Assembly (NCBI GenBank): GCA_958009085.1
Contig: OY253685.1
Coordinates: 372,001-436,000, forward strand
DNA from: Protoeuglena noctilucae
Lineage: Eukaryota
Reading direction: 5' to 3'
Length of the DNA stretch: 64,000 nucleotides
Made by a program: the position numbers and the translations under genes. This document shows, in pieces, positions 932 through 27,521 of this stretch. The notes beneath the pieces are model-generated. The model had not been told where the DNA came from. It did not search any database and worked only from the letters and a program-made list of their open reading frames with translations. The number at the start of each line of letters is the position of its first letter. Position 1 is the first letter of the stretch.

Positions 932-1178
932 AAAAAAAAAAAAAAAAGGCTCGCGGCGGGATCGGAGCTCGACACGTCAGCACCTGGTGCCAGACGCGGG
1001 TGCCTCTCACTTCTCTGGACACCAACCGTGACCCGTGAGGGACCACGACCATTGCTCCCAAAAAAAAAAAAAAAAAAGGCCCGCGGCGGGATCGGAGCTC
1101 GACACGTCAGCACCTGGTGCCAGACGCGGGTGCCTCTCACTTCTCTGGACACCAACCGTGACCCGTGAGGGACCACGA
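932..1178. repeat. Two tandem ~100-bp near-identical units, each preceded by a poly(A) tract
   Basis: A-runs at ~932-947 and ~1060-1077, each followed by GGC(T/C)CGCGGCGGGATCGGAGCTCGACACG...CCGTGAGGGACCACGA. Confidence 0.9.
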
Positions 1179-1208
1179 TCTCGAGCTCGTCATTTCCCGC
1201 CGCGGGTG

Positions 1209-1508
1209 CCGGGCACAGGGGGGCGAACCCCCCCACTGGCCCCTAGGGATCCACACTCAGAGAGTGCGAGGGAGCTTTGCAAAGCGGCCCGGGGGCGGAA
1301 GCGTCATCAGGCCACCTGAACGCGTGCGCTAGGGGAGTGGCGCGCCCAAGGGACTGGGGGGACCGGATCTCGGGGACCTGGGTCCCCCGTTCTGTCCCAC
1401 GAGGGGGGCACCGCAGCCTTTGCAACACTCCGAACATGACGTGAAACCCTCGGCTACTGCTCCCGACTCTACTAGGCTCCCGCCCGCCGGCGCCCGCCCG
1501 AGGTTTCC
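1209..1508. repeat. ~300-bp dispersed repeat, copy 2
   Basis: Aligns by eye with 417-717, with scattered substitutions, many of them C/T. Confidence 0.9.
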
Positions 1509-1674
1509 ACGACCATTGCTCCCACGCCCCGTCTTTGTCTTTGATGGTCGTGAAGCTCTGGTACGAAAGCAGCGAGCGCCGGGCATGCCAGGACGGAGAG
1601 TTGCTGTCAGAGTACCTGATGCCAATCCTTTTGCTAAATTGTTGCAGCATTTCGACTTCCGTTGTCGAAGACGT

Positions 1675-1748
1675 TCCGGCTTAGCTCAGTTGGTTAGAGC
1701 GCACGGCTGTTAACCGTGAGGTCGCAAGTTCGACCCTTGCAGTCGGAG
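1675..1748 (+). tRNA. tRNA-Asn (GTT)
   Basis: Full cloverleaf: acceptor TCCGGCT/AGTCGGA, D-arm GCTC-AGTTGGTTA-GAGC, anticodon arm CACGG-CTGTTAA-CCGTG, T-arm GCAAG-TTCGACC-CTTGC, discriminator G. A TTTT Pol III terminator follows at ~1755. Confidence 0.95.
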
Positions 1749-1882
1749 CAAATCTTTTGGTGTGCCCAAGGATTACCCTACCGGGTATTGACCTACCCGC
1801 CTTCGGAGAGAAAGTCACCTACACTGCGCATGTGTAGGTACCTGTGTAGGTCAGCGCGAGCGCGAGGTCGCAAAACCCGTGC

Positions 1883-2060
1883 CGTGCCAAATGCACTGCA
1901 ACGATGGAAACCCCGGGGTGTCAGCTGCCCCGGGGGACGGCACTTCTGCCGCAAGGCGTGGCTCTGAGAGTCATAGCACCCCTCGACTGTTGAATCGCTC
2001 ATCATCATCGCAAAACCCCTGTCATAGCACCCCTCGACTGTTGAATCGCTCATCATCATC
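1883..2060 (+). repeat. Two 5'-truncated copies of the retrotransposon 3' end
   Basis: 1883-2009 matches 11279-11405 (127 bp, one mismatch seen). 2021-2060 repeats the last 40 bp. Both end in CATCATCATC. Confidence 0.8.
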
Positions 2061-2126
2061 AAAATTGGCGAGGGGGTGCGGTTGGGTGTTTTGCGTGCAT
2101 TCGCGACGGCTGATGCGGTCGCATAT

Positions 2127-2683
2127 CCCCTGGCAGGCGCCAGGCGGCAGCACGACGCGCTCGAGTTCTGCTGGTCGGGACAAGCCGCGCCCCCGAGTCT
2201 AGGGGGGCTTTCGGGGCGCTGCGCGCTGTGTGCGTGCAGAGGGACGGCAGGCTTTCGTGTCGGGGACGCAGAGCGACCGGCGGGACGCGGGGACCGCGCC
2301 GGTGGGACCAGGGTGGGGTCCGTTGTTAGCATGGGGCGAAAGTGCTCTGCGCCGTGGCATGGGGGCTTGTCTCTGCTTCGTTGCTTCGTTGTTGTATTTG
2401 TACCCAGGGGCCCGCTCGCGTGGCATCCTGCGGTTGCTCGTCCCGGCAGGGGCGGCGGTTCGGCGAAGGGGCTAGGGGCGCTGGAGCCCGGGGCGGCGGC
2501 CCCATAGCCTTAGGGTGGGGGGACCTAGCGGGGGCGGGCCAAGTGCCATATGCACTGCGATCATGGAACCCCCGGGGTGCGGCAGCCCCGGGGGAAGGCG
2601 CCCCTGTCGCGCGGGCCTAGCTCGTGCGGCGAGGATCCTGATGGACCTCAGCACCCTCAGCCATTGAACTGCACATCATCATC
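2127..2683 (+). mobile_element. Putative non-autonomous mini-element (diverged 5' end plus 3' end of the LINE, no ORF)
   Basis: 2127-2230 resembles 2689-2790 (CCCCTGGCAGGCGCCAGG...CGGGAC(A/G)AGCCGCGCCCC). 2468-2683 resembles 11203-11405 (GGGCTAGGGG...GCCTTAGGGTGGGG...CCTAGCGGGGGCGGGCCA...CATCATCATC). Confidence 0.6.
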
Positions 2684-2806
2684 GCAAAACCCCTGGCAGG
2701 CGCCAGGTGAAGGCACAGCCGCTCGGTCTCGTTGGCTCGGGACGAGCCGCGCCCCGGAGCCGAGGGGGGCTTGCGAGGCGCCGCGCGCGTGGCAGCGTGC
2801 GGTAAA

Positions 2807-5800
2807 ATGACGATCTGTAGCATGGATGGGCCGGGCGGCCGGCGGAAGGGGGTTGCGGCGACGGGGGCGGCCCGATCAGATGGTATTGTTAGCTCGAGCG
2901 TTCGGGGCCCGCGCGGTGGCGGGGCGGGGCCGGCGTCGGGTCTTTTGCATGCAGGGGGTTCAGAAGGTATCGCAGGAGGGTCTACGGGGGGCGGAGGAGG
3001 CGGAGCGGGCGCGGGTGCGCGGCGCGGGGGCGCGCTGGGGCAGCATGGCGGCGCGAGGAGAAGGGGGGGCGGGAGCGGTCCGCGAGGCCGGGGGAGCGGG
3101 AAGAGTCGGTCTGGAGGCGTTCAAAGCTCGGGAGCGCAAGGGTCGGAGGTCGGAGAGGCGTCGGGGGCGCGTATCGGCGCGCTCCCACCCATCCCGCTGC
3201 CGCCATTGGGGAATCTGCCCCCGCCGCCGCCGCCGCCGCCGCGGATGGCGCCCTCCGCGGTGCCGGCGCGCGGGCCACGGCGACGGGGAAGGCGGAGCGC
3301 GGCGCGGGACCTCGCGCCGGACGACCTGCGGGTCGTCAGCGTCAACGTGCGGGGGCTGTCGAGCGGGGCCATGGCGGGCAAGCGGGCGACGGTGCGGCGG
3401 CTGGTGCGGAGGCTGCGGGCGGACGTGGTGGTTCTACAGGAGGTCAAGATGCGGGCGGGGCAGGAGGCGGTGGCGTCGGGATTCTTCCCCCAATACTTCT
3501 GCCACTGGTCGCTGGACGAGAACGGCGGCCCGGGGGGCGTGGGGGTGCTGGTACATCGGGAGTCGGTGGCGGGCACGCCGAAGCGGCGCGGGGCGGACGT
3601 GGAAGGGCTGGCGGGGCGGGCGTGCGCAGTCGACCTCGCATGGGCCGACCGGCGCTTCACGGTGGTGGGGGTCTACGCGCCGGCGTCTGGGGGGGCGGCA
3701 GCGCACAGGGACTTCACTGCGCGGCTGCGGCATCTGATGCCGCCTCGCCAGGCGCACAGGGAGACGATCGTCGTTGGGGACTTCAACTGCACGTCGGGTC
3801 ACCCGCTCGAGCGGGCGTCCCGGCGCCACCACGACGACCTGGCCAAGGTCATCCACTGGACGGAGAACGTGACGGGACCGCAGGGGCTGGCGGACGTGCA
3901 CGTGCAGCTGGGGCTACGCCGGGACACCTACACGTGGTTCGGGGCGCGAGCGGAGGGGGCAGCAACGCCGGCGGCGCGCATCGACCGCTGCCTGGCGCGC
4001 CCGGCCCTGCTAGCCCGGCACCCGGCGACGCTGGCGGCGCGCTTCGTGCCCGGGCTGGACCACAAGGCGCTCGTCCTGACGCTGCGGCGGCGGGCAGACA
4101 GGGCCGCGGGGCGCAACCCGCTGCGGCAGGTCCGGCCGTTCTGGGCGCCGGGGAGCCATGAGGCCGAGCGATTCCAGCGGGGCGTGTGGAGGGACTTACC
4201 GGCGGACGGGCCGGGGTGCACGTCGGTGCGAGTGGCCTAGGTCATCCGGCACCGCGCGGAGGCGATCAACCTGGTGGTGCGGCGGCGGCGGGACGGGGAG
4301 CGGAGGCGTCTGGAGAAGCAACTGGGACGGGCGGAGAGGAGGGCGCAGCGGACGAACGCGACGGAGGACTGGGACCGGATGCTAGACCTGCAGCGCCAGC
4401 TGACGGTGCTGGAGCAGCAGGAGGTCCAGTGGCAGAGCGAGCGGGCGAAGCACTTTCTGCGGGTCTTCGGGGCCGTGCCGAGTCGGCGGATCACGGCCCA
4501 TTTCAAGTGGCGGCGGCGGGCCGAGGGCGTCACGGACGACCTCGCGCGGGACCTGCAGACCAACATGGCCCAGCTCTACGCCCCTGCCGCGCCCCCGGCC
4601 TCCGCGGACGGCCAACATGAGCGGGCGCGCGCCAACTTCCTGCGCAACCCGCGGTCGCCGCTGTCGGAGGAGGCGAGGGCCGCTCTCGAGGCAGACGTGA
4701 CACGGGCGGAGGCGGCTGAGGCGATACAGGGTCTACGGGGCGACAGCTGCGGTGGCGCGGACGGCATCTCCCCGGCGCTGCTCAGGGCGTGCCAGGGCAC
4801 CGGGACCGAGGCGGGCGTCGAGCGGGTGGTCGCCTACTTCGTAAACAAGCTCCTCCGCGGCGAGGGGCACGACGGCCGCCTCGCGGACGCCGCCATCACG
4901 CTCATCCACAAGGGCGGCTCGCGGACGGACTGGCGGCGGTACCGCCCCATCTCCCTACTGTCCGTCCTCTACAAGGCTTCGGCCAAGGTGCTGACGGCGC
5001 GGCTGCTGCGGGTGCTGCCGCAGCTCGTGCACGAGGACCAGTTGGGTTTCGTCCCCGGGCGTGACATTGGGACGGCCATCTACTCGCTGCATCTGCTCGA
5101 CGAGCTCATGCGCATCCGGCGGCAGTCTGCGTGGGCGGTGCTGGTGGACTTCGAACAGGCGTACGACACGGCCTTCCGGGGGTGGGCTGCGGACGCGATG
5201 GCGTGGGGAGGGCTCCCGCCGCGTTTTGTCAAGGCGGCGGTGGCGCTGCAGAGCGACAGCCGGGCGAGCCTGGTCCTCAATGGGGCGGCGGGGGAGCCGT
5301 TCCCGCTCAACCGGGGCGTCAAGCAGGGATGCCCCCTGAGCTCATCTTCGTGCTGGCGGTGGAGCCCCTCGCAGAGAGGCTGCGGGCGTGGGGCCAGGAG
5401 CCGGTGCAGCTGCCGGGCGGCCCGCGGTGCGACCGCGTGCTCGGCATCCGGACGACGGGCGGCAGGGCCGAGACGCTTCTGGCCTTCGCCGACGACTTCA
5501 ACGTGCTGCTCCAACGGCTCGTGGCGCGCGACAGGAACCAACTCGACCCGTGGCGGGAGCTGGCCGAGGTGCTGCGGGACTTCCACCGTGTGTCCGGGCT
5601 GAAGGCGAGCCAGACCAAGACGAAGCTCTACCGACTGGGACGCATCAACAAGCGGCAGGAGGCCAAGGCCGCCGCGCAGGGCTGCCCGTGGGGGGTGGAG
5701 CTGGGGGGCGTGCGGCTGCTGGGGGCGCAGACGAGAGAGCAGGCGGCGCTGGTGTGGCCCGGGCGGCTGGGGGAGGCCCTGCGCCGCGCGGACGCGGCGT

Positions 5801-8376
5801 CATCGCTGGGGCTGCCGATCCGGGGTCGGGCGCGCGTCGCCAACGCCTACATCACCTCGCTCGCGGGGTACCACCTCGAGATGTCCCCCGCCGCCGACCA
5901 CTCGTGCGTCGCTGACCTGCGGAGGGTCCAGGAGCGCTATGTCCTCAACGCACGATCGGCGGGGCAGGTGTGGTTCCGTGTGGGCCGCATCATGCTGACC
6001 GCCCCGCCGGAGGGTGGGGGGCTGGGCGCCCTCCCGCTGGACGCGCACACGGCGGCGCGGCGGCTCCGGCACCTGGCGCGCGCCCTCATCACGAAGCGCG
6101 TGGGCGCTCACGGCCAGTTGGACGGTCTCGCTGGCATCCTCACGGCGTGCCTGGAGGGGCTCGGGGCAGGCCGGCTGGGCCTGCTGCCCTTCTCACTGCC
6201 CGAGACGGACGGTTGCCACGTGGCGCAGTTGATCGAGTCCCGCCGCCTGCGGGGCAAGCTGCCGGCGCTCGAGAGCTTCTGCGACGCCATCAAGAGCCTC
6301 GGGACCCTGCGCGCGACCCTCGGGCCCGTGCACGCGCCGCCACCTCTGGCACCCACGACGGACGAGGTCGCCCGGCAGCGCTGGACCGGCCTGGCGGCGG
6401 AGGGCCGGCTGACGCTCAACTTCGACGGGGGCTCGCGGGGCAACGGCTCCGACACGTCCACGGCTGGCGCGGGGGCGGTGCTGGCGGCCGGGGAAGGCGA
6501 GGGGGTGGAGACGCTGGAGCTCGCGGGCCCCGCCGTGCGCGGGGCCTCCAACAACCAGGCCGAGTTCGCCGCGCTTTTGGGAGGGCTGCGCGCGGCAGTC
6601 GAGCTCGGCGCCACCAAGCTCCGCGTCCGGGGGGACTCCCTCCTCGTCATCCGCGCCATGGACCCGCGGGACTGCTCGGTGCTGCGGCACCCGGCGCTGG
6701 TGCCGCTGTGGACCGAGGCGCAGAGGCTCGCGGCGGGCCTCGACATCACTTGGGAGCACGTGCCACGGGAGCAGAACGCCCTGGCGGACCGCCTGTCCAA
6801 CGTGGCCATGGACGGGCATGGCTGGCGGGGGGCGCGCATGGGCGGCGGGGGCCTGGCGGGCACGGACGGCTCGCGTTTCGCCTCTTCTACGGACTTCTTC
6901 ACCCCCGTCACTGGGACTACAAAGGGGGATCTACTCTGCGCGTCGCTTCTCACCCCGGGGGTCCTCTGTGCCGCCGGCGGGGGGGCTCCGGGCGCGGGGG
7001 TGGCAGGCCTGGGGGCGCCGGCGATGGAGGGGGCAGCTGGCCCCCTCCACAACGACATGGGACAGGACCAAGACGATTCGGCCTCATCGCTCCACAGCTT
7101 CGCGACGGGCGCCCATGGGAGGGCTGGTGGGGCGTGGGTGCACGACGGCGCGTCGGGCGACGACAATACGGATGATGGGATCGACGAGGGGGGTGCTGGG
7201 CGGCCGGCGGGGGGCGGCCGGCCCCTCCTCCTGCACCCGGTGGGGAGGGCGATGGCGTAGCGGGGGTTCGGAACTGTGGGGCATTATCTCTGCATGCGGG
7301 ACCCGGCGCGGCGATGGGACACGTGGGTCTCCTGGGCGTTCGCGCTGGGCTATGATCGGCTGCCGGGGATGGATCGGAGGGGCCTCGGCTGGGTGGTTGG
7401 GGCTTTTATGCGGGACCTGGGCCTCCTTGGGCCGGGCATACTCGTTGCCCGGCCAGACGTGGAGGGGCAATGGGACCCGTGGGACGGGCTGGCGCTCACG
7501 GAAGGCTTCATGGAGCGCCTGCGACTCGCCTCCCCGGGCGGCGGGGAGGCCAACGACTTCTACCGGCCCATGACGGCCACCGCGCCGGGCTGGGCACTGG
7601 ACCCCGGCGTCGCCTCCAAGGCGGCGCTGGACCTGGCCTCCTACACGGTGCGGGAGGCGGCGAGGACGACGTGTGACAGGGCGGCGATCCGGCAGCGGCT
7701 GGAGCGCAAGGCGGAGGGCTGGGCGGCGGCGCTGGGGGAGGGACACGGCTTAACGGGAGAGGGATTGAGGCGCACGCTGGTGGCGCTCAACGGGCTGCCG
7801 CTGTCGGACGCCCTGCACGAGCGGCTGTGGCTGACGCTGGCGGACGGGTGGGCTACGCAGGACAGGATGTACTGGGCGGAGCGGGACGAGTGCCCGCTGC
7901 TGACGGAGGAGGGGGAGGCGTGCATGGGAAAGGACAGCGCGGCCCACGCGTTCTGGGAGTGCTCGCGCGCGCGGGAGGTGTGGCGCGTGGCGAGGGGCAT
8001 CGTGGCGTGGGCGGGGGGGGCGCAGGGGGCGCCCCTCCGCCTGTCGGCCCTCTTCCTGTTGCGCGTGCCGGAGGGCGCGCGGTTGGGGCCGCTCACGTGG
8101 GCGGTCGTGGCGGGGGCGACCGTGCAGGTCATCTGGCGCAGGCGGCAGCAGCTGACGAAGGACGCGGGGGCGGACGCGTACCCGGCACAGCTGTTCGCGC
8201 AGATGGCGCGCATCATGGCCGAGGAGCTCGTCGCTCTGGCGGCGTACCGGGGCGGGCGGGCCCTCGCGCGCTGCACGCACCCTGACGACGCCCTCTTACA
8301 CCCAAGGGACCCGGCGAGGTCCACCTTCACCTACACTGCGCCCACATGGGCAGCCGTCGAGCCGCTACTCCCCTGA
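2807..8376 (+). pseudogene. Disrupted LINE polyprotein: Gly/Arg-rich N-terminus, APE endonuclease, reverse transcriptase, archaeal-type RNase H, zf-RVT
   Basis: APE motifs VSVNVRGL, VVLQEVK, GVYAP, VVGDFN, IDRCL, LDHKAL. RT motifs YRPISLL, QLGFVPGR, LVDFEQAYD, GVKQGCPLS, AFADD. RNH motifs FDGGSRGN, NNQAEF, RGDS, EQNALADRLSN. zf-RVT CPLL...C...DSAAHAFWEC. In-frame TAG at 4238-4240 and 7258-7260, frameshift at ~5340, no introns seen. Confidence 0.9.
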
Positions 8377-8420
8377 GGGGGGCTCTTCATTCGCAGCTCG
8401 CCATCACCCCACGACATTCG

Positions 8421-8485
8421 GGCCGGGGCGCCGGCGCCGGACGGGTGGCCTTCGGGCTGCTCGTTCCGGCGTCGGCGCCCCGGCC
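8421..8485 (+). other. ~30-bp RNA hairpin capped by a C(UUCG)G tetraloop in the LINE 3' UTR
   Basis: GGCCGGGGCGCCGGCGCCGGA-CGGGTGGCC-TTCG-GGCTGCTCG-TTCCGGCGTCGGCGCCCCGGCC. The non-Watson-Crick positions are mostly G-U on the + strand. Confidence 0.85.
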
Positions 8486-10512
8486 AACTGGGGCGTCCAC
8501 GGCCACACTGAGCATCTACGGAAGAGCCCGTCTGCCGGCTAAAACAAGCTCCCCTGCACCCAGGATGATGATATGGGCTGGAGCATCGCACGGCGGCGCC
8601 ACCGGCGATCCCCTGGGCTGCCTGGCCGGAGCCGGAGCCTGAGAGGGGCCGCGGGCGGGGGGTCCACGCGATGCGCGCGCAGCCGCAGGGGCGTGGGGCG
8701 CGCTGTGGCGGCAAGGGCGGGCGCCTCACGGGGAGGGTGCCGGCGCTCGGGACACCAAGGGCTTCTGCGCACCCACGCTCCATCTCTCGCATGCCTCGCA
8801 GGTTCTCGGACGCACACTCGACAGCTTTACCCACACGCCTTCTCCTCACCTGCCCCGCAGCCGGCCATGCCACCCCACCCCAATGCGCATTACTCCCACA
8901 TCCACCCGACCGCATTGCTCCCACCAGGGCCCTAAGCCAGCCCACTGCCTTCCTATGACGCACACTTTTCACCCCCCACATCACACTGCACACGCACCCT
9001 GCCCCAGCAGCACTCACCCGCATGCCACGCCTCCCCGTCCATGCCCGCAGCTAACAGATAGATGCCTCTTCCAACCAGACCACACACACCGTCTTACTCT
9101 CTGCACGCACCCTCGTCACTCATCTCACGATCTCGCCGCTCAGCACCACTCTTGCCCACTCACCGCGCATCACCACTGACATACACACGTTCACCTCTCA
9201 ACCCCCTCTCCTCTTCCACATGGACCCCCACATAAACCACCTTCCTGCTCAGCACGCATCATCTCCCACCCCTCCTCCTGGCAGCCCCACGCCACACCCT
9301 TCTCACGGACCACGCCCCCGCACACACCTCACCTCACACGCCCAACCAGACTCGCCCTTTTCGCAAGCCCTCCTGCCCCACGCACTCCCCCCCTAGCTGC
9401 ACAGGTAAGGCTCAGCACCCTCTCCTCACAGCTAATGCCCACGTGAGCACTCACACCCCTCAGCGCATCACTCCCCACGCACCAAGCACCACACACCGAT
9501 CCAGCACAGCATCTGCACCTCCTGACCTCCCCCAATCACGCACAGACCTCCTCGCATCCTCCCACGACCACCCTCTTGGCCAGCCGCAGGTCAGGACCCA
9601 CACCAACACTCATCCTCCGCCACGCACACCGTCACCTCTCCCTGACCGCAGACCTGGACGGACGCGCAGACGCACCCTTGCCTCACCCCTAGCCCTTTGC
9701 AGCCATGCCTCGCAGGCCCTTGGTGTCCCACAGCCGCCAGCGCTCACCCGTGGGGCGTCTGCTCCGTCGCCGTCGCGGCGCGCCCCGCACACCCACGGTA
9801 CTGCGCGTGCCGCGTGGCCTCCCCGCCCGTGGTCCTTCAGGGGCTCTGGCGCTGGTCGGGTGGGTCCGCGTGGGGGTCGCCAGCGCGTCGCATGTGCTCC
9901 AGCCAACGTGAGAGACCAGCCCCGCTGGGGGGGGCTGGCAAAGGGTGCGACGGGGGACAAACGTCGGGGCAGAGCTGGCACCAACGGGTTGATGGGCTCA
10001 GACAGTGGCGAGAGACGTGGCGCCCGTGGGGTGGAACGCCGGGGATGTCGTGGGAACACCCGGCAGTGGCGCAGAACGGACCAGGCGCCACAGGATCAGA
10101 GAGCGGCGTGGCTGCGACGAGGCGGGGAGAGTGGGGGCGCAAGTGGGCCGGAGGGCCTGTCTTTGGGAGTCTGCTGAGGAGGCCCTGCAGGAGAGCAACG
10201 GATGGCGAGGGGTGCTGGCGCCCGGCATGATGGCGCTGGCGGGGGCGACCCCTCGCACGACACACAGCAGGGCAGCGGGCTTTTGGGGGCGGGCGCGATG
10301 GCAGCGCGGCAAGAGCGAGCGGCGGCGGCGAGAGTAACACAAGGGGCATCGAATGGTGTGGGTGGGCATGGGCTGGGCGACACAGGGGTGTCGGGTGTTT
10401 GGGGGGGCGACGGGGGCGCGAGGCAGGCCGAGGTCCTCTGGATGCGCAGGGGCGCGTGAGCGGGGGGCAGGCCTCGGTTATCAGGGCGCGCGGGTGCGCG
10501 GAGCGGGGGGTG

Positions 10513-10680
10513 GGCCAAGGTCGTCAGCGTTAAAGGGCCAGGGTCGCCACAGCGTCGGTTGAAGGTCGTCAGCGCATTTGGCCAAGGTCGTCAGCGTGAA
10601 AGGCCAAGGTCGTCAGCGTGATGGGCCAAGGTCGTCAGCGTGATGGGCCAAGGTCGTCAGCGTGACAGGCCAAGGTCATC
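10513..10680 (+). repeat. Minisatellite of ~8 units of ~21-22 bp, GGCCAAGGTCGTCAGCGTGA(T)
   Basis: Directly visible tandem units, degenerate at the edges. Confidence 0.9.
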
Positions 10681-11547
10681 TGGGCGTGTGGGGGCGAGGA
10701 GTTGAGGGACGGGCCAAGGCCGACGGGCGCGGGAGAGGACGGGCCAAGGGCCAAGATCGACGTGCGGGAGCGAGGAGCGGGGCCGCGTCGTGGGTCTCTG
10801 GGCACACGGCCGAGTGGGTCGTGCCGGCGCACGCACCCGGAGCGGGGCGGTCTGGGGCGGTCCACATGAGAGGCAGCCGGCCCTCAGGGGCGCAGCGTGG
10901 GCGAGCGGGGCGCCCAGGGGCAACGCTGCGCCCCCCAAGGAACGCCGTCTGCGTTCGGACCGTCCCCACCGCCCTCGCGTTCGGGCCAGCGTCGCCGGGT
11001 GGGCGAGCCAGCCGGGCCGCCTGAGGAGGATGGGAGGAGGGTAGGGAGCGGGGGATGTCATGATTGGCCGCCCATAAGCTACACAGATCGTCATTAGCCT
11101 CGGCCTCACCTTTTGTAATAGACGCCCGGGGGTCTCCAAGGAGGGCCCCCGCGGCTGCATCGTCCCACTCTGGGACGGCGATTCTGCCTTAGGGCGCAGC
11201 GAGGGGGCTAGGGGTGCAAGAACCCGGGGTGGGCGACCCCTTTGCCTTAGGGTGGGGCAACCTAGCGGGGGCGGGCCACGTGCCAAATGCACTGCAACGA
11301 TGGAAACCCCGGGGTGTCAGCTGCCCCGGGGGACGGCACTTCTGCCGCAAGGCGTGGCTCTGAGAGTCATAGCACCCCTCGACTATTGAATCGCTCATCA
11401 TCATCACGACCTTCACCTTCACCTTCACGCCGAAGCGCGATTCACGTTCCGGTTGTAGCTTGGTGAGACGGGATACGGTCGGGGCTGCCTCGCCTGGGCC
11501 GAGCGTTCCTGGGACCTGCACCAGCACCCTGGGGTTCTGCTGCAGTC

Positions 11548-13823
11548 ATGTGGGGGCCCCAGTTACTTTTGGTGGAGGACCTGGAGCTTGGGGCGCCGCT
11601 GGGTGGGAGCGAGGGGGTCGTGACGGCTCAATGGGTCTCGAGGGGGCTGGACGTGGCGGTGAAGTTGCTAGAGCTGCTGGATGGCGCTAGCACGGGCACG
11701 AATCCGGCTCTGGAGTTGCGCCTGGCTTTCCATGGCTCATGGTCGCGCCGGTCGATGCCAATGCTCCGTCCCAGCGGGCGCCCACTGCCGGGTCCTGGTC
11801 GTCGCCGTCAGCGGTCGCTGCGTGCTGGTGGGGACGCCGCGTTTCGCTCGCGGGTCCCTCGCGCGGCGCCTGGGGAGCGGGACGGCCCTTCCTGCGAAGG
11901 AGGCCGTGGACGTGGCCGTGCAGCTGCTGGAGGGGCTGTGCGCCCTGCATGAGCGGGGCATCGTGCACGCCGCGCTCAAGCCCAGCAACGTGCTGGTGGA
12001 CGAGAAGGGACGACTGCGACTGTCTGACTACGGGCTCGCAGATGCTGCTGGCGTCCAGATGGGCCCCTCGGCAGGGAAGCTGTCACCTTCCTAAGGTGGG
12101 AAAGGGCAGCTACAGGGACGTTTCTTTCGTCAACACAGCGTGCTACGGAACCTTCCATGTCCGCAGTGGGAGGGTGGACAGGGTGCGCTGGTCGATGCCG
12201 CGGCCTACGTGGCCCCGAAATGCAGGGGCGAAGGGGCGGCCACGAGCTTTGCCTCGGACGCATACGCGGTGGCCGCCGTGCTGTGCCACGTGGCGTCGGG
12301 CACGGCGCTGCCCACGGATGGGCACGCCTGCGCAGGTGCCGAAGACGTTGCCGGAGCCGCTTCGGTCGGCCCTGCGAGGGGCGCTGTGCGCGGAGGCGGA
12401 GCGCAGGACAGCTGTGGCGGACATGCTGGAGGCAGCGAGAGAAGCCAGGTGCGCGTCGGAGTAAATCGACGTTGCAACGGTTGCGCGCGTGGGTGCAAGC
12501 CACGCAAGTCCGACCGCCCTCGGCGTCATCGCAGGGCGGCGCTGTGGACGTGCTGCATCTGCATGGAGGAGGAGGAGGCGCTGACGCCATGCTTGGCGGA
12601 CACGCACCGCATCTGCAGCGAGTGCCTGGCCAGCTTGGTCGGGACCCTAACGGCGAGCCACTCGGTCTTCACGGTGGATGGTCACGTGGGGTGCAAGGAG
12701 GCGACGGGGCGGGAGTGCCGGGGCGTGTTCCGACGCGCGGATGTGGTGGAGGGACTTGTGCAGTCGCGGGCCTCGGCAGCGTGCCTGGCCTTTCTGGAGC
12801 AGGGGTCACACGGAGGTGCTGTCGCAAGTATCAGCAGACGCACGCATGACCGAGCTTCAGCGCCGGAGTGCGGGAGCTCGAGAGTTGACTGAGGAAGCAA
12901 AAGCGCTCGGCGATATGGAAGAATCCGTGACCACCCATTGGCGGGCGATGAAGGACCTCCTAATCGTGGTCCGGTGCCCCAGCTGTCAGCGCCCAGGGTC
13001 GATCGACGTATCGCGCTGCATGGCGCTGCACTGCGCGCGGGGGGACGGCGGCTGCGGCTGCCATTTCTGCGCGTGGTGCATGGGGGCCTGCTCCGACTCG
13101 GGCGCGGCCCACGACCACGTGAGCGAGTGCCGGCTGAACCCCAACCGGCCGGCTTTCTTTGCATCAGAGGAAGACCTGCTTAAAAGCCGGAAGTGGGAGC
13201 AGCGTCTGCGTGTGGTGGCTTTCCTCCGGGACAGCATTGCCCCTAGACACCGAAAGGCCGCGTGGGCGCTGGGGTTTGCAAAGCTGCCGGCCATCTGTGA
13301 CTTGGGGCTACGCTGGGAGGACGTGTGTTGCGGGTGTTGCGGCGTCATGAGCCGCGGGAAGGGCAGCAAGGTGACCGTGAGGCGTGTGTCCATCACGGGC
13401 TCCAAGGCGAACGCGGGATCGCGTGCTGGGACAGTGGGGTGGGTGAGGTGTCGGACGTGCACATTACGCGGTGCAAGCTGTCGGGCATCTCCGTCATTGG
13501 GGCTGGGAGCAGCGTTAAGGTGCAGGGGGGCACAATTGAGGGCCCCATGGAGCACCACGGCGTGTGCTGCTTCAGGGGTGGGTTTGCAGACCTGAAGGAC
13601 GTTGATCGCAGACTGCGGCAAGGCGGGCGTCCAGAGTTTTGGCAATGGTAGCAAGGTGGTCGTGCGAGGGGTAAGCTTGGCGCGGATGGGTAGCAAGGGT
13701 GGTTTGTGCTGCGAGAACGGTGGTGAAGCGGAGGTGGAGGGCACGCTTGTCAGCGATCGCGGTGGCAGCAGCGGACGGGGTGGCAGCGAGCAGCGTCGCA
13801 AAGCCTCGTGCAGTTTCATGTGA
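11548..13823 (+). pseudogene. Frameshifted kinase-like + RING + IBR-like + right-handed beta-helix fusion
   Basis: Kinase motifs DVAVKLL, IVHAALKPSNVLVD, LSDYGLA, YVAP, SDAYA. RING CCIC...HRICSEC...C...C. IBR-like CPSC...CMALHC...CGCHFCAWC...H..C. Beta-helix repeats (VSDVHITRCKLSGISV, IADCGKAGVQSF). The motifs are spread over several frames. Confidence 0.7.
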
Positions 13824-24419: not shown

Positions 24420-27400
24420 ATGCGGTCTACCATCCACAGGAGCAGGATGTCGCAATGTGCGTCGCTTGTGCGGGGCCTGAGGGGCGTCCCGCCCTCTTCT
24501 TTCGCGCGATCTGCTCCCCTCGCTGCTGTGAGACTGTGCGGATTGCAACGGATGTCCGAGCCGCTCCATCTCTTCGCGGGGAGCCACCCGTACCGGTCGC
24601 GCCCCCCGGCTGCCACAGCTGCGAGGGACTCCCCGGCCGCGACCAGCGACGTCCCTCAGGTGATGATTGTTGCCAAGCCGGATGGGACTCACGCCATGCT
24701 TCTGGCGGCACTGCAGCTTGATCCCCCACCGCCATCGACTTTGCAGGCGGGTGCGCACCTCGAGTGGCCAAGGCGTTCCCACGGCGCGGGCACCATCCGT
24801 TGCAGCCACGAGGGGGAGGTGGTCGAGATATGTGGGTGGATTGACAGCGTGAGGTAAGAGGCAATCTAGGTCGAGGAGCTCTCAAGCGAGGGGTCGTGGT
24901 GCCGACAGCCAGGCTGCCGGACCTCTGCAGGGACCTGGGGGGGATGCTCTTCTTCACGGCGCGGGACCACACGGGTGTTCTACAATTCATCGTAAGCGAG
25001 GACTTCCCCGAGGCGGCTGAGGCGGCAGCCAAGCTGCGTGTGGAGGTGACGCGCCGCTCGCTCGTCGAGCGCATACCCGGCCGCCAGGCGCGCGCCCCGT
25101 GATAAGCACTTCCGATACGCTCCGCAGTGCTGCGTGAAAGCTTCGGGCAAAGTGGCGCGCCGTTCCGACCCGAACCCGAACATGCCGACGGGCGAAGTGG
25201 AGGTGGTGCTACAGCAGCTCTCCATCCTGAATGGCACGGGTGTCCTCCCCTTCTCGGGTGCGTTTGGGCCGTAGCTGCGATTACACGACACCCCACGTGA
25301 TGACTTCACGTGCCCTCGATGCGTCGCCTGGTGCGTCTGGTCGTCCATGCCCTAGGCCGACCGTGTCCGCAGTGTCCGCGATGGAGAGGTCCGCCGAAGT
25401 GCCCACGGAGGAGACACGCCTCAGGTACCGCGTGCTCGACCTACGGCGGCAGCAGATGCAGCGCAACCTGCGCCTGCGCCACGACCTCGTCCGCACCATA
25501 CGCCGGTACCTGGAGGACGAGCAGGGATTCCTGGAGCTCGAGACTCCCATGCTCACGAAGGTGCTCGGACACTATCCTGGCGTAGACATGGCCTCCTTGC
25601 TTTCCCGGCAGGGACGTGCACCCACCTCGCCCCCTCCCCCTCCCCATGGCAGTCCACCCCGGAGGGTGCCCGCGACTTCCTCGTCCCCTCCCGCCTCTCC
25701 CCTGGTGATTTCTACGCCCTGCCACAGTCTCCCCAGCTCTTCAAGCAGCTGCTCATGGTCGCGGGCTTCGACCGGTACTACCAGCTCGCCCGCTGCTTCC
25801 GCGACGAGGCTCTGCGGGCCGACCGCCAGCCCGAGTTCACCCAGCTGGACATGGAGATGGCGTTCCTCGACAGGCGAGTCGGCATGTGGACGGGTGCTGC
25901 TGCTGCCGGGTCGCCCTGGCACTCGCGTGCTGTTCCTGAGGACAGTCGAGGGCGATGGTGCGCAGGGAGGCGGTGCTGTCGCTTGTGGAGGGGATGATCT
26001 CTCGCGTGTTCAAGGCCATTTTGGGCGTGGAGCTCCCGGTGCCCCTGCCGCGCATGACGTATGCCGAGGCCATGGAGCGGTACGGCTGCGACAAGCCCGA
26101 CACTCGCTTCGGCCTCGAGCTCACCACCGTGACGGAATGCGTGCGCGGGTGCGGGTTCAAGGTGCTCGCCGAGGCCGTGCAGGGCGGGGCCACGGTGCGC
26201 GCCCTGCGCGTCCACGACGGCCAGCGCCTCTCCAACGCCCGCATCAAGCCCAAGGGGGACGTCGCCGAGGAGGCCATCAAGGGTGGCCTGCCTGGGTGAG
26301 GTGGACGAGGATCGCGTTCTAACAGCCCTCTACCTCAGTCGTGTGGGCGATGTCCCCGTGCTGGCACGCGACGTACGCGTCGATGCCCTCGCAGGCTGGT
26401 GTACATCCGCGTCGGAGAGGGCGGTGCCATCGATGCGGCCAAACCTGTCAAGGAGGGGTTGTCGCCCGAACAAGTGGCAGCCATGCTCGAGGCATGCCAG
26501 GCTCAGGTGGGTCAACGCTGCTGCATGGGGCCTTGCTCGCACAGGCATCGGCCAAGGGTCTGAGGCAGCTATGGCCTGCTGCTTAGTTCGGGAGTATGCG
26601 TGTTCGCAGCCGGGTGACCTCCTCCTCCTGGCTGCTGGGCCCGCGAGCCTCGTCAACAAGGCCATGGACCGCGTCCGCAATTTCTTGGGCGAGTCGCTGG
26701 GGGGGGTGCGGGAGGGCGAGCACAAGCTCCTGTGGATCGTCGACTTCCCCATGTTTGAGCTGAACGAGGAGGTGAGAGAGCTGCGTGGTTGCGGCGCGCT
26801 GCCATGGCCGTCTCGTGTCGGCACTGCTGACTGCAATCTCGTGACGCTCCGGGCAATCGGACGCATTCCCAGGAGAACCGTCTCCAAGCGCTCCATCACC
26901 CCTTCACCGCCCCCCACCCGGACGACCTGGGTGACCTCCCGAGGGCACGGGCGCTGGCGTACGACCTCGTCTACAACGGCGTGGAGATTGGCGGTGGCTC
27001 CCTCCGCATCTACACGGCGGAGGTGCAGAAGAAGGCGAGACGGCTGTGCCGACGGGACGCGGGTTGGGCATGGCGCCCCACACTGCGGCCATACTGACCA
27101 CTGGCCTTGGGGAGCCGCTGTATCTGCGTGACCGAGGGCTGCCGGCCGCTCGCAGGTGTTTGAGGTGATTGGACTGCAGGATGCGGAGGCGCGGCAACAG
27201 TTCGGGTTCCTGCTCGACGCGCTCGAGAACGGCGCCCCGCCCCACGCGGGCCTCGCGTTTGGGGTCGACCGCCTGGCGATGCTGCTGGCCGCGGCCAAGG
27301 TGAGGCATGGTGAGTGGGATACGGTCGCACATTCAACAGCCTCTCCGCGTTCAAGAGAGGGATCGGCGCCTTCGCAGTACGGCAAGGACGCTGCAACGTC

Positions 27401-27521
27401 CATCCGCGACGTCATCGCCTTCCCCAAGACCTCGGGAGGGCAGTGCCTACTGACGGGAGCCCCGGCGTCCGTCGCCAGCGATCAGCTGGACGAGCTGGCC
27501 ATCAAGGTTTCCGCAACATAG
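24420..27521 (+). CDS. Organellar (bacterial-type) aspartate--tRNA ligase (multi-exon)
   Basis: [98 protein letters not shown]. Confidence 0.95.

What the first reader, a model, noticed from the sequence alone, without database searches (positions are those of the whole stretch)
8089..10463. LINE 3' region folds into a giant G-U-rich RNA rod that includes the end of the ORF
Seen: 8089-8762 is antiparallel-complementary to 9716-10463 along one diagonal. Perfect anchors are 8749-8762/9716-9729 (14 bp), 8576-8585/9895-9904 and 8408-8417/10045-10054. Weaker anchors lie inside the ORF (CCCAAGGGAC/GTCTTTGGG, CATCATG/CATGATG). In 8690-8731/9747-9790 almost every non-Watson-Crick position is a G-U pair on the + strand, and a cUUCGg hairpin (8421-8485) branches off. 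A decaying DNA inverted duplication would give A-C mismatches as often as G-U. Inference: selection acts on transcript structure, giving an interrupted duplex of several hundred bp in an ~3-kb 3' UTR. I do not know of this in L1/Tx1 elements. Possible roles are RNP scaffold, replacement of ORF1p packaging, or small-RNA self-regulation.
Basis: partly seen in the sequence, partly recalled or inferred. Interest (0 to 1): 0.88.

Follow-up and report, generated by a model that had tools for sequence, protein, structure and literature searches.

The report
Split hairpin in a LINE tail
The 3' untranslated tail of a LINE-type jumping gene holds a real but much smaller inverted repeat than claimed, about 190 bases per arm and split by a 0.9-kb C-rich insert, so it is a modest curiosity and not a giant RNA rod.

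Summary
The three perfect anchors exist. Only 8576-8769 / 9711-9904 is complementary beyond chance: z about 12 against shuffles, and a cofold gain of -127.7 kcal/mol on + against -80.9 on -. The rest of the claimed rod, 8089-8575 / 9905-10463 including the ORF end, is at chance level (z -1.3 to 1.8). The third anchor recurs near the diagonal in 83 of 1000 shuffles.

In the real repeat G-U outnumbers A-C 22:7. Simple composition drift predicts 1.07-1.26. The UUCG hairpin 8421-8485 is real (z -8.8).

The arms flank a C-rich, G-poor 914-nt segment. It is bracketed by a 12/13-nt direct repeat and GT...AG ends, so it looks like a later insertion into a once compact hairpin.

With the segment in place, the folding model prefers arm-to-middle pairing by 49 kcal/mol. 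The UTR is no more stable than shuffles, and the - strand folds better.

The layout is family-wide and also stands in RNA-library contigs. No other copies could be fetched, so covariation is untested.

Verdict: a real sense-strand hairpin module or relic, with low to moderate interest.

The parts
2676..11406 (+). One unit of an L1-like non-LTR retrotransposon. The 5' start reads CAAAACCCCTG and the 3' end reads ...CATCATCATCA.
   Evidence: The 3' end 11279-11405 equals 1883-2009 at 99%. Further 3'-end/5'-start junctions lie at 2001-2022 and 2672-2693. Contig joints 11405->8268 and 11259->7687 show 5'-truncated copies that carry the whole UTR.
2732..8376 (+). Broken ORF with APE, RT and RNase H domains. 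It has two in-frame TAG stops (4238-4240, 7258-7260), one frameshift in the RT near 5400, and a terminal TGA at 8374-8376.
   Evidence: Pfam: Exo_endo_phos 1e-16, RVT_1 7e-15, RVT_3 5.1e-13. The best solved relatives are human LINE-1 ORF2p at 2.8e-19 to 1.1e-18, against R2 at 1.9e-7.
8421..8485 (+). Hairpin of 30 bp capped by c(UUCG)g, 45 nt after the stop codon.
   Evidence: RNA fold on + is -71.5 kcal/mol, z -8.8. On - it is -56.3, z -6.65. By my reading of the sequence and dot-bracket, the departures from Watson-Crick pairing are about four G-U pairs and one single-base bulge. The tool does not count pair types.
8576..8769 (+). Left arm of the real inverted repeat.
   Evidence: blastn self-hit 8631-8769/9711-9850, E 6e-13.
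8790..8802 (+). First copy of the 13-nt direct repeat CATGCCTCGCAGG. The next bases read GTTCTCGGAC, counting the last G of the repeat.
   Evidence: It is the only exact direct repeat of 12 nt or more in 8377-10463.
8803..9703 (+). C-rich, G-poor middle (C 0.49, G 0.14). It is nearly unstructured on its own and looks like a later insertion into the hairpin apex.
   Evidence: Composition. MFE is -0.155 kcal/mol per nt against -0.44 to -0.57 in its neighbours. It shows no sequence-specific complementarity to its flanks, z about 0. Contigs bridge both junctions.
9704..9716 (+). Second copy of the 13-nt direct repeat. It ends CTCGCAG|G, like host intron acceptors.
9711..9904 (+). Right arm of the real inverted repeat.
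10511..10686 (+). 22-nt tandem repeat in the distal UTR. It is not part of the hairpin.
   Evidence: One contig of X13 has one unit fewer.

Best explanation
Shown:
- The element is an L1-like LINE (APE-RT-RNase H) with a 3-kb 3' UTR.
- Its UTR holds an old inverted duplication of about 190 nt per arm, 8576-8769 and 9711-9904. Between the arms the model forms about 170 predicted base pairs, of which 24-27 are G-U.
- A separate 30-bp UUCG-capped hairpin sits 45 nt after the stop codon.
- The arms are separated by a 914-nt C-rich, G-poor segment, bracketed by a 12/13-nt direct repeat.
- The layout is shared by the family's other copies.

Inferred:
- The repeat began as a compact hairpin of about 400 nt with a loop of about 40 nt. 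The C-rich segment was inserted into its apex later, with the direct repeat as a target-site duplication.
- In the sense transcript the arms pair into a long imperfect duplex that loops out 0.9 kb or more of the UTR.
- The G-U over A-C bias suggests that pairing in the + strand RNA has been weakly maintained. The duplex would then be a cis-acting structural module of the LINE RNA, for example compacting the long UTR or giving the RNP a platform.

It is not a rod of about 700 bp and it does not involve the ORF end. The confidence given is for this whole statement. The structural description alone I hold at about 0.85.
For: - Inner arms: alignment z 12-15. The cofold gain is -127.7 on + (z -17) and -80.9 on - (z -12). 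None of 33 non-cognate natural windows comes near.
- Mismatches: G-U 22 against A-C 7, p 0.008. A second gap setting gives 25:7. A composition-driven model expects 1.07-1.26, p 0.009-0.038.
- Between-copy differences show no such asymmetry (41:31, 31:25 and 19:22, my tally). Fisher p is 0.04 pooled.
- Of the 5 variants that one search lists inside the arms, 3 lie at modelled pairs and all 3 switch between C-G and U-G. The other 2 lie in internal loops.
- With the 914 nt left out, the arms are the MFE structure: 169 bp, z -13.2 on + and -8.9 on -. They also form in the UTR context, with 162 pairs.
- The direct repeat sits exactly at the apex.
- Family-wide: X2 and X8 cover 30 of 30 bins and X13 covers 26 of 30. 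Contigs bridge the arm/middle junctions. 4 RNA-library runs hold 47-62% of the sampled words.
Against: - With the middle present, the MFE of 8377-10463 has no arm-to-arm pairs. Enforcing them costs 49.2 kcal/mol on + and 151.5 on -.
- The UTR is not more stable than its shuffles on either strand, and the - strand folds lower.
- The arms carry 33 gap columns and 14 transversion-type mismatches, which looks like decay.
- A 914-nt insertion into the apex was tolerated.
- The ORF has a GC skew of +0.16 to +0.24 at third positions. A strand-asymmetric mutation process therefore exists and could exceed my simple model.
- The comparison with the chance-aligned outer part (about 24:20) gives only p 0.085.
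- Three of 3 pair-keeping variants is not significant.
- No compensatory double changes could be examined.
- RNA-library contigs do not prove transcription and give no strand.
Confidence: 0.45

Rival explanations
1. Neutral relic. The repeat is an inverted duplication in the master lineage, for example from template switching or snap-back during reverse transcription. It is simply decaying in a long, unconstrained UTR. The G-U excess comes from + strand-specific mutation, such as C-to-U on the RNA or on single-stranded DNA, and not from selection for pairing.
For: - 33 gap columns and about 22-25% mismatches between the arms.
- The outer third is already near chance, z 2.0-3.7.
- The + strand is G over C at third codon positions, skew +0.16 to +0.24.
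- The full-length fold does not use the repeat, and the UTR is not unusually stable.
- The insertion into the apex was tolerated.
- Fisher tests against the internal controls are marginal, p 0.04-0.11.
Against: - A reversible composition-driven model predicts only 1.07-1.26 G-U per A-C, against 3.1 observed.
- Copy-to-copy differences show no 3:1 asymmetry.
- The neighbouring UUCG hairpin also departs from Watson-Crick pairing almost only by + strand G-U (my reading), and is 15 kcal/mol better on +.
- The extreme C-richness of the middle argues against a strong general drive towards G on the + strand, unless the middle is young.
Confidence: 0.4
2. Nested foldback or MITE-type DNA transposon. 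A palindromic element of about 400 bp landed in the UTR of an ancestral master copy and has been carried along since.
For: With the middle left out, the arms and a short loop make a compact palindrome of about 400 nt, a typical MITE size. Marine algae hold many MITE-like elements (PMC9860276, passages read).
Against: - I saw no target-site duplication at the outer ends (8566-8575 against 9905-9914, read).
- There is no other copy in the 64-kb window.
- The arm bins do not stand above their neighbours (1207-1920 in the four arm bins of X2; all bins of that run span 1150-10201). That table is a poor measure of copy number.
- No listed loose ends fall at the arm boundaries (64 rows were not shown).
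Confidence: 0.08
3. A rod of several hundred bp, 8089-8762 with 9716-10463, includes the ORF end and is maintained by selection.
For: - Cofold gain for the outer parts exceeds shuffles modestly, z -2.9 and -3.8 on +. It also exceeds all 33 and 32 natural control windows.
- The anchors exist.
Against: - Alignment with or without G-U gives z -1.3 to 1.8.
- The helices behind the energy gain lie about 200 nt off the diagonal and reflect C-rich against G-rich composition.
- The 10-mer anchor is matched near the diagonal in 83 of 1000 shuffles.
- G-U against A-C in the outer part is about 24:20.
- The full fold pairs 10099-10428 with the C-rich middle instead.
Confidence: 0.03

Closest known systems
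3' stem-loops of 'stringent-type' LINEs recognised by their own ORF2 protein (zebrafish ZfL2 and the like; PMC4176376 and PMC5135761, seen only as search listing and start of abstract)
   Same: An RNA hairpin in the 3' UTR of a LINE's sense transcript, proposed to act in cis.
   Different: As I recall, those are short stems placed directly before the 3' tail. Here the stem is about 170 bp, lies 1.5-2.8 kb upstream of the 3' end, and is split by 0.9 kb. No protein recognition was tested.
Long inverted-repeat (hairpin RNA) sources of small RNAs inside transposons (for example maize TE hairpins, PMC10760457, listing and start of abstract only)
   Same: An intramolecular duplex of more than 100 bp in a transposon transcript, which could be a Dicer substrate.
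   Different: The duplex has 15-16% G-U and many bulges. No small-RNA data were available, and I did not check whether the host has the RNAi machinery.
Inverted duplications and inversions made by reverse-transcriptase template switching in L1 ('twin priming'; recalled, no paper read)
   Same: It would give an inverted copy of LINE sequence inside a LINE.
   Different: Twin priming inverts the 5' part of a single insertion. Here the inverted duplication is internal to the UTR, old (about 22-25% arm divergence) and inherited by the whole family.
Introner-type insertions whose target-site duplication supplies a splice site (PMC9860276, passages read)
   Same: The 914-nt middle is bracketed by a direct repeat that ends in ...CAG|G. 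It starts with GT and ends like host acceptors (CTCGCAG|G).
   Different: The paper reports 3-9 bp duplications, whereas this repeat is 12-13 nt. The one introner whose coordinates appear in the passages I read is about 77 nt, against 914 nt here. This is a single case, not a family. No spliced joint appears in the RNA contigs.

Membership tests
L1-like (APE-type) non-LTR retrotransposon | N-terminal apurinic-type endonuclease domain | tested here: met
   Pfam Exo_endo_phos, E 1e-16, aa 203-432 of the 2732-4240 frame.
L1-like (APE-type) non-LTR retrotransposon | Reverse transcriptase closest to L1 ORF2p | tested here: met
   RVT_1 at 7e-15. phmmer against PDB gives human LINE-1 ORF2p at 2.8e-19 to 1.1e-18 over 345 aa, against R2 at 1.9e-7. 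No clade phylogeny was made, so L1 against Tx1 is not resolved.
L1-like (APE-type) non-LTR retrotransposon | 5'-truncated copies and a simple-repeat 3' tail | tested here: met
   Tail ...CATCATCATCA. Joints show copies that start at 7687 and 8268.
L1-like (APE-type) non-LTR retrotransposon | Separate ORF1 | tested here: not met
   There is no separate upstream ORF. The 200 aa before the APE domain have no Pfam match. This copy is damaged, so the result is weak.
Stringent-type LINE 3' recognition stem-loop | Short stem-loop directly upstream of the 3' tail | tested here: not met
   The repeat ends 1.5 kb before the 3' end at 11406 and is about 170 bp long. The defining feature itself is recalled.
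Hairpin-RNA small-RNA locus | Long intramolecular duplex in a transcript | tested here: inconclusive
   The duplex is strong in isolation (-127.7 kcal/mol gain). It is out-competed by arm-to-middle pairing in the full-length model. The region stands in RNA-library contigs, but the strand and its RNA origin are not shown.
Hairpin-RNA small-RNA locus | Small RNAs of 21-24 nt mapping to both arms | not testable with these tools
   No small-RNA runs were laid.
MITE / foldback DNA transposon | Target-site duplication outside the terminal inverted repeats, and independent copies | tested here: not met
   No flanking duplication was seen by eye at 8566-8575 / 9905-9914. There is no other copy in the window. 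The genome-wide test could not be run because no genome is held.
Spliceosomal intron or introner (for the 914-nt middle only) | GT...AG boundaries that fit host splice signals | tested here: met
   The boundaries read CAG|GTTCTCGGAC ... CCTCGCAG|G. I placed the host aaRS introns by eye between Pfam-matched exons. On that reading two end in CTCGCAG|G and one starts GTGCTCGGAC. The comparison was made after the fact.
Spliceosomal intron or introner (for the 914-nt middle only) | Spliced junction in RNA | tested here: not met
   No 8801->9716 joint appears in the RNA run X8 or in any of the 4 runs. RNA contigs run across 8802 and start inside the segment's last 18 nt. Contigs drop rare forms, so this is weak.

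The most novel reading that the evidence does not exclude
The hairpin of about 170 bp and the UUCG hairpin behind the stop codon are selected sense-strand RNA modules of this LINE family. The C-rich 914-nt middle is an intron-like insertion whose 3' splice site came from its own target-site duplication. Looping it out or splicing it out brings the arms together and shortens the effective 3-kb UTR. A retrotransposon would then carry a conditional, structure-restoring intron in its UTR.
Probability: 0.12. Interest if true: 0.65.

Novelty: new member of a known kind. Interest (0 to 1): 0.27.

Why it matters
If the G-U bias reflects selection, this family would give a clean case of a long sense-strand RNA duplex kept in a LINE 3' UTR far from the 3' end. 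That differs from the short terminal stem-loops known for LINE recognition.

The split-hairpin layout would also give a natural test of how much apical insertion such a structure tolerates.

If it is a relic, the case is a caution. In strand-skewed, GC-rich elements, long 'rods' read by eye and a G-U excess both arise easily. C-rich against G-rich tracts dominate predicted folds.

Tried and rejected
- Whole genome for other copies: none is held.
- Other copies in the window: none; only self-hits and the terminal repeats.
- Metagenome pattern scan with a 20-mer from the arm/middle junction: 3 loci (L001-L003). They share only the 21-mer and no flanks, so they are chance matches. That used the single scan.
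- Viral contig scan: 0 hits.
- Earlier findings of this scan: nothing by place or by sequence.
- Rfam over 1800-11700 at E up to 1: only a sub-threshold match outside the UTR. Rfam over the whole window at gathering score: only the tRNA.
- A second inverted repeat between the C-rich middle and the G-rich flanks, as the MFE suggested: rejected, z -1.1 to 0.9 on either strand and in direct orientation.
- Protein search with the RT-RNase H part: 2 near-identical unnamed proteins. The other 6 hits, four of them named bacterial RNase H/acid phosphatase proteins, matched only the RNase H part. This gave no help with clade or relatives.
- Pfam on the ORF's last 371 aa and first 203 aa: nothing credible.
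- Depth in the laid runs was not used to rank parts or to infer copy number.
- No spliced joint or empty-site form was seen. I treat that as weak, because contigs drop rare variants and 307 pieces and 64 loose ends were not shown.
Full report
**What the element is**

The window is 68% G+C. Positions 2676-11406 are one unit of a non-LTR retrotransposon on the + strand.

- Pfam finds an apurinic-type endonuclease (1e-16), a reverse transcriptase (7e-15) and an RNase H-like domain (RVT_3, 5.1e-13).
- The RT part is closest to human LINE-1 ORF2p among solved structures, at 2.8e-19 to 1.1e-18 over about 345 residues. R2 scores 1.9e-7.
- This copy is damaged. It has two in-frame TAG stops and one frameshift in the RT. 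The frame ends at TGA 8374-8376.
- The unit ends in ...CATCATCATCA at 11406, so the 3' UTR is about 3.0 kb.
- The last 127 nt recur at 1883-2009 at 99% identity. Junctions of a 3' end with a 5' start recur at 2001-2022 and 2672-2693, so pieces lie head to tail.

**The observation**

All three perfect anchors are exact. The claim of one long antiparallel diagonal does not hold.

| Segment | z against shuffles |
|---|---|
| 8560-8762 / 9716-9935 | 12.3 (Watson-Crick), 14.9 (+ strand G-U allowed), 13.2 (- strand G-U allowed) |
| 8377-8559 / 9936-10110 | 1.2-1.8 |
| 8089-8376 / 10111-10463 (ORF end) | -1.3 to 0.6 |

- Cut finer with 500 shuffles, 8631-8769/9711-9850 gives z 8-10 per half and 8576-8630/9851-9904 gives z 2.0-3.7. 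Everything outside 8576/9904 gives z 0.4-1.5.
- blastn finds only 8631-8769/9711-9850 (E 6e-13).
- The third anchor (8408-8417/10045-10054) is not remarkable. An exact 10-mer complement within +-40 of the diagonal appears in 83 of 1000 shuffles.
- Cofold energies give the outer parts a modest excess: z -2.9 and -3.8 on +, -2.2 and -2.0 on - (40 shuffles). No natural control window reached the observed gain (0 of 33 and 0 of 32).
- The helices responsible sit about 200 nt off the claimed diagonal. They pair the locally C-rich ORF end with a G-rich tract. A post-hoc alignment test of that diagonal gives z 0.5-2.6.

**The real repeat**

- In isolation the arms form 168-175 intermolecular pairs, 24-27 of them G-U.
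- The cofold gain is -127.7 kcal/mol on the + strand and -80.9 on the - strand.
- A plain alignment that treats all mismatches alike gives 152 matches, 22 G-U, 7 A-C, 14 transversion-type mismatches and 33 gap columns. The binomial p is 0.008. A second gap setting gives 25:7.
- The small hairpin 8421-8485 is real: -71.5 kcal/mol and z -8.8 on +, against -56.3 and z -6.65 on -. By my reading, its departures from Watson-Crick pairing are about four G-U pairs and one single-base bulge.

**Is the G-U excess selection?**

- Third codon positions of the ORF are G 0.52-0.56 against C 0.34-0.38.
- I therefore computed what a composition-driven, HKY-type drift would give for an inverted copy relaxing to the + strand composition. 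The result is 1.07-1.26 G-U per A-C, against 3.1 observed (p 0.009-0.038).
- Internal controls point the same way, but weakly. In my tally, differences between this copy and others split 41:31 (X2), 31:25 (X8) and 19:22 (X13) in the G-U-making against A-C-making sense, if this copy is taken as derived.
- The chance-aligned outer part gives about 24:20. Fisher p is 0.04-0.11.
- Of the 5 variants that one search lists inside the arms, 3 fall at modelled pairs and all 3 are C-G/U-G switches. The other 2 fall in loops. This is too few to count as evidence.

**Folding in context**

- The MFE of 8089-10463 holds no pair between the two real arms on either strand. Each G-rich arm pairs with the C-rich middle, and 8947-9452 pairs with 10099-10428.
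- For 8377-10463, enforcing the repeat costs 49.2 kcal/mol on + and 151.5 on -.
- The native energies are -924.7 on + and -1051.5 on -. They are not below those of dinucleotide shuffles: z +0.84 (n=14) and +1.26 (n=7).
- The middle-to-flank pairing is purely compositional, z -1.1 to 0.9.

**The middle segment**

- 8803-9703 is C 0.49 and G 0.14. It is almost unstructured alone, at -0.155 kcal/mol per nt against -0.44 to -0.57 around it.
- It is bracketed by the only exact direct repeat of 12 nt or more in the UTR, CATGCCTCGCAG(G) at 8790-8802 and 9704-9716.
- Some 13-mer direct repeat occurs in 44 of 300 shuffles of the region. The placement of both copies within about 30 nt of the repeat's apex is my own rough estimate of about 1e-4.
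- With the 914 nt left out and one repeat copy kept, the arms become the MFE structure. That gives 169 pairs, an apical loop of about 41 nt, and z -13.2 on + and -8.9 on -. They also form within the UTR context, with 162 pairs.
- The simplest reading is a later insertion, with a target-site duplication, into the apex of a once compact hairpin.
- The boundaries also read CAG|GT...CTCGCAG|G. I placed introns of a host aminoacyl-tRNA synthetase gene in the window by eye between Pfam-matched exons. On that reading two end in CTCGCAG|G and one begins GTGCTCGGAC, against GTTCTCGGAC here. Insertions whose duplication supplies a splice site are described for marine algae (PMC9860276, passages read).
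- This is a lead only. No spliced joint or empty site is listed in any of the four runs, and RNA-library contigs run across the 5' boundary.

**Other copies and RNA**

- 15 listed runs from 6 studies hold the stretch or part of it. Four of them are RNA libraries, with 47-62% of the sampled words.
- Laid at 80% likeness, X2 and X8 cover 30 of 30 bins, X13 covers 26 and X15 covers 8.
- Contigs bridge the ORF end into the UTR and both arm/middle junctions. Examples are 8308-9076, 8663-9034, 9562-9777 and 9621-9832.
- Joints show 5'-truncated copies starting at 7687 and 8268 that carry the whole UTR.
- The layout is thus a family feature, not a private rearrangement. Contigs give no strand and do not prove transcription.
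- Covariation could not be tested. No genome is held and the window has no second copy. The metagenome scan gave three chance 21-mer matches and the viral scan gave none.

**Verdict**

There is a real, + strand-favoured, G-U-biased inverted repeat of about 190 nt per arm, plus a real UUCG hairpin. There is no rod of several hundred bp and no involvement of the ORF.

I put 0.45 on a weakly maintained sense-strand RNA module, whose role is inferred and not shown. I put 0.40 on a decaying relic with mutational G-U bias, 0.08 on a nested foldback transposon, and 0.03 on the original giant-rod reading.

Known LINE 3' stem-loops (PMC4176376 and PMC5135761, listings only) are, as I recall, short and terminal. 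This one is longer, internal and split. I found no description of such a feature in the two literature searches I ran, which is a narrow basis.

Interest is low to moderate.

Noticed in passing
window 8790-8802 and 9704-9716, bracketing 8803-9703: A 13-nt exact direct repeat sits at the apex of the inverted repeat and flanks the C-rich 914-nt middle. The boundaries read GT...AG, and the 3' end matches host acceptor-like CTCGCAG|G. This may be an insertion with a target-site duplication, perhaps intron-like.
   Followed up: partly
window 1675-1749 (+): A tRNA-Asn(GTT) gene lies about 130 bp upstream of the first LINE 3'-end fragment (1883), in the same orientation. tRNA-gene-targeted LINEs are known in other protists (recalled), but here it may be coincidence.
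   Followed up: no
window 1868-2061, 2463-2698 and 11199-11406: LINE 3' ends (...CATCATCATCG) are followed at once by the 5' start CAAAACCCCTG, three times within 800 bp. Contig joints 11405->8268 and 11259->7687 show the same head-to-tail habit elsewhere, which suggests insertion into or next to the family's own tail.
   Followed up: partly
window 4238-4240 and 7258-7260: Both in-frame stops that break the LINE ORF are TAG, while the terminal stop is TGA. Two of two is not significant, and I did not check whether other copies share them.
   Followed up: no
window 10511-10686: A 22-nt tandem repeat (about 5-7 units, consensus AAGGTCGTCAGCGTGATGGGCC) lies in the distal UTR. One contig of run X13 lacks one unit.
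   Followed up: partly
window 9905-10463 and 10464-11406: The distal UTR is very G-rich on the sense strand. It has 30 and 50 runs of GGG or longer, and 4 and 2 canonical G-quadruplex motifs. The C-rich middle has 41 C-runs.
   Followed up: no
window 7814-7846: In all four laid runs, a contig matches only these 33 nt of the ORF and then runs on into unrelated sequence on both sides. The left flank ends like an intron acceptor, ...CTCCGCAG. This may be a host exon derived from, or similar to, the LINE.
   Followed up: no
window 24900-27450 (+): A class II aminoacyl-tRNA synthetase gene (D/K/N type) is split into at least 6 Pfam-matched pieces by short introns of about 80-110 nt.
   Followed up: partly
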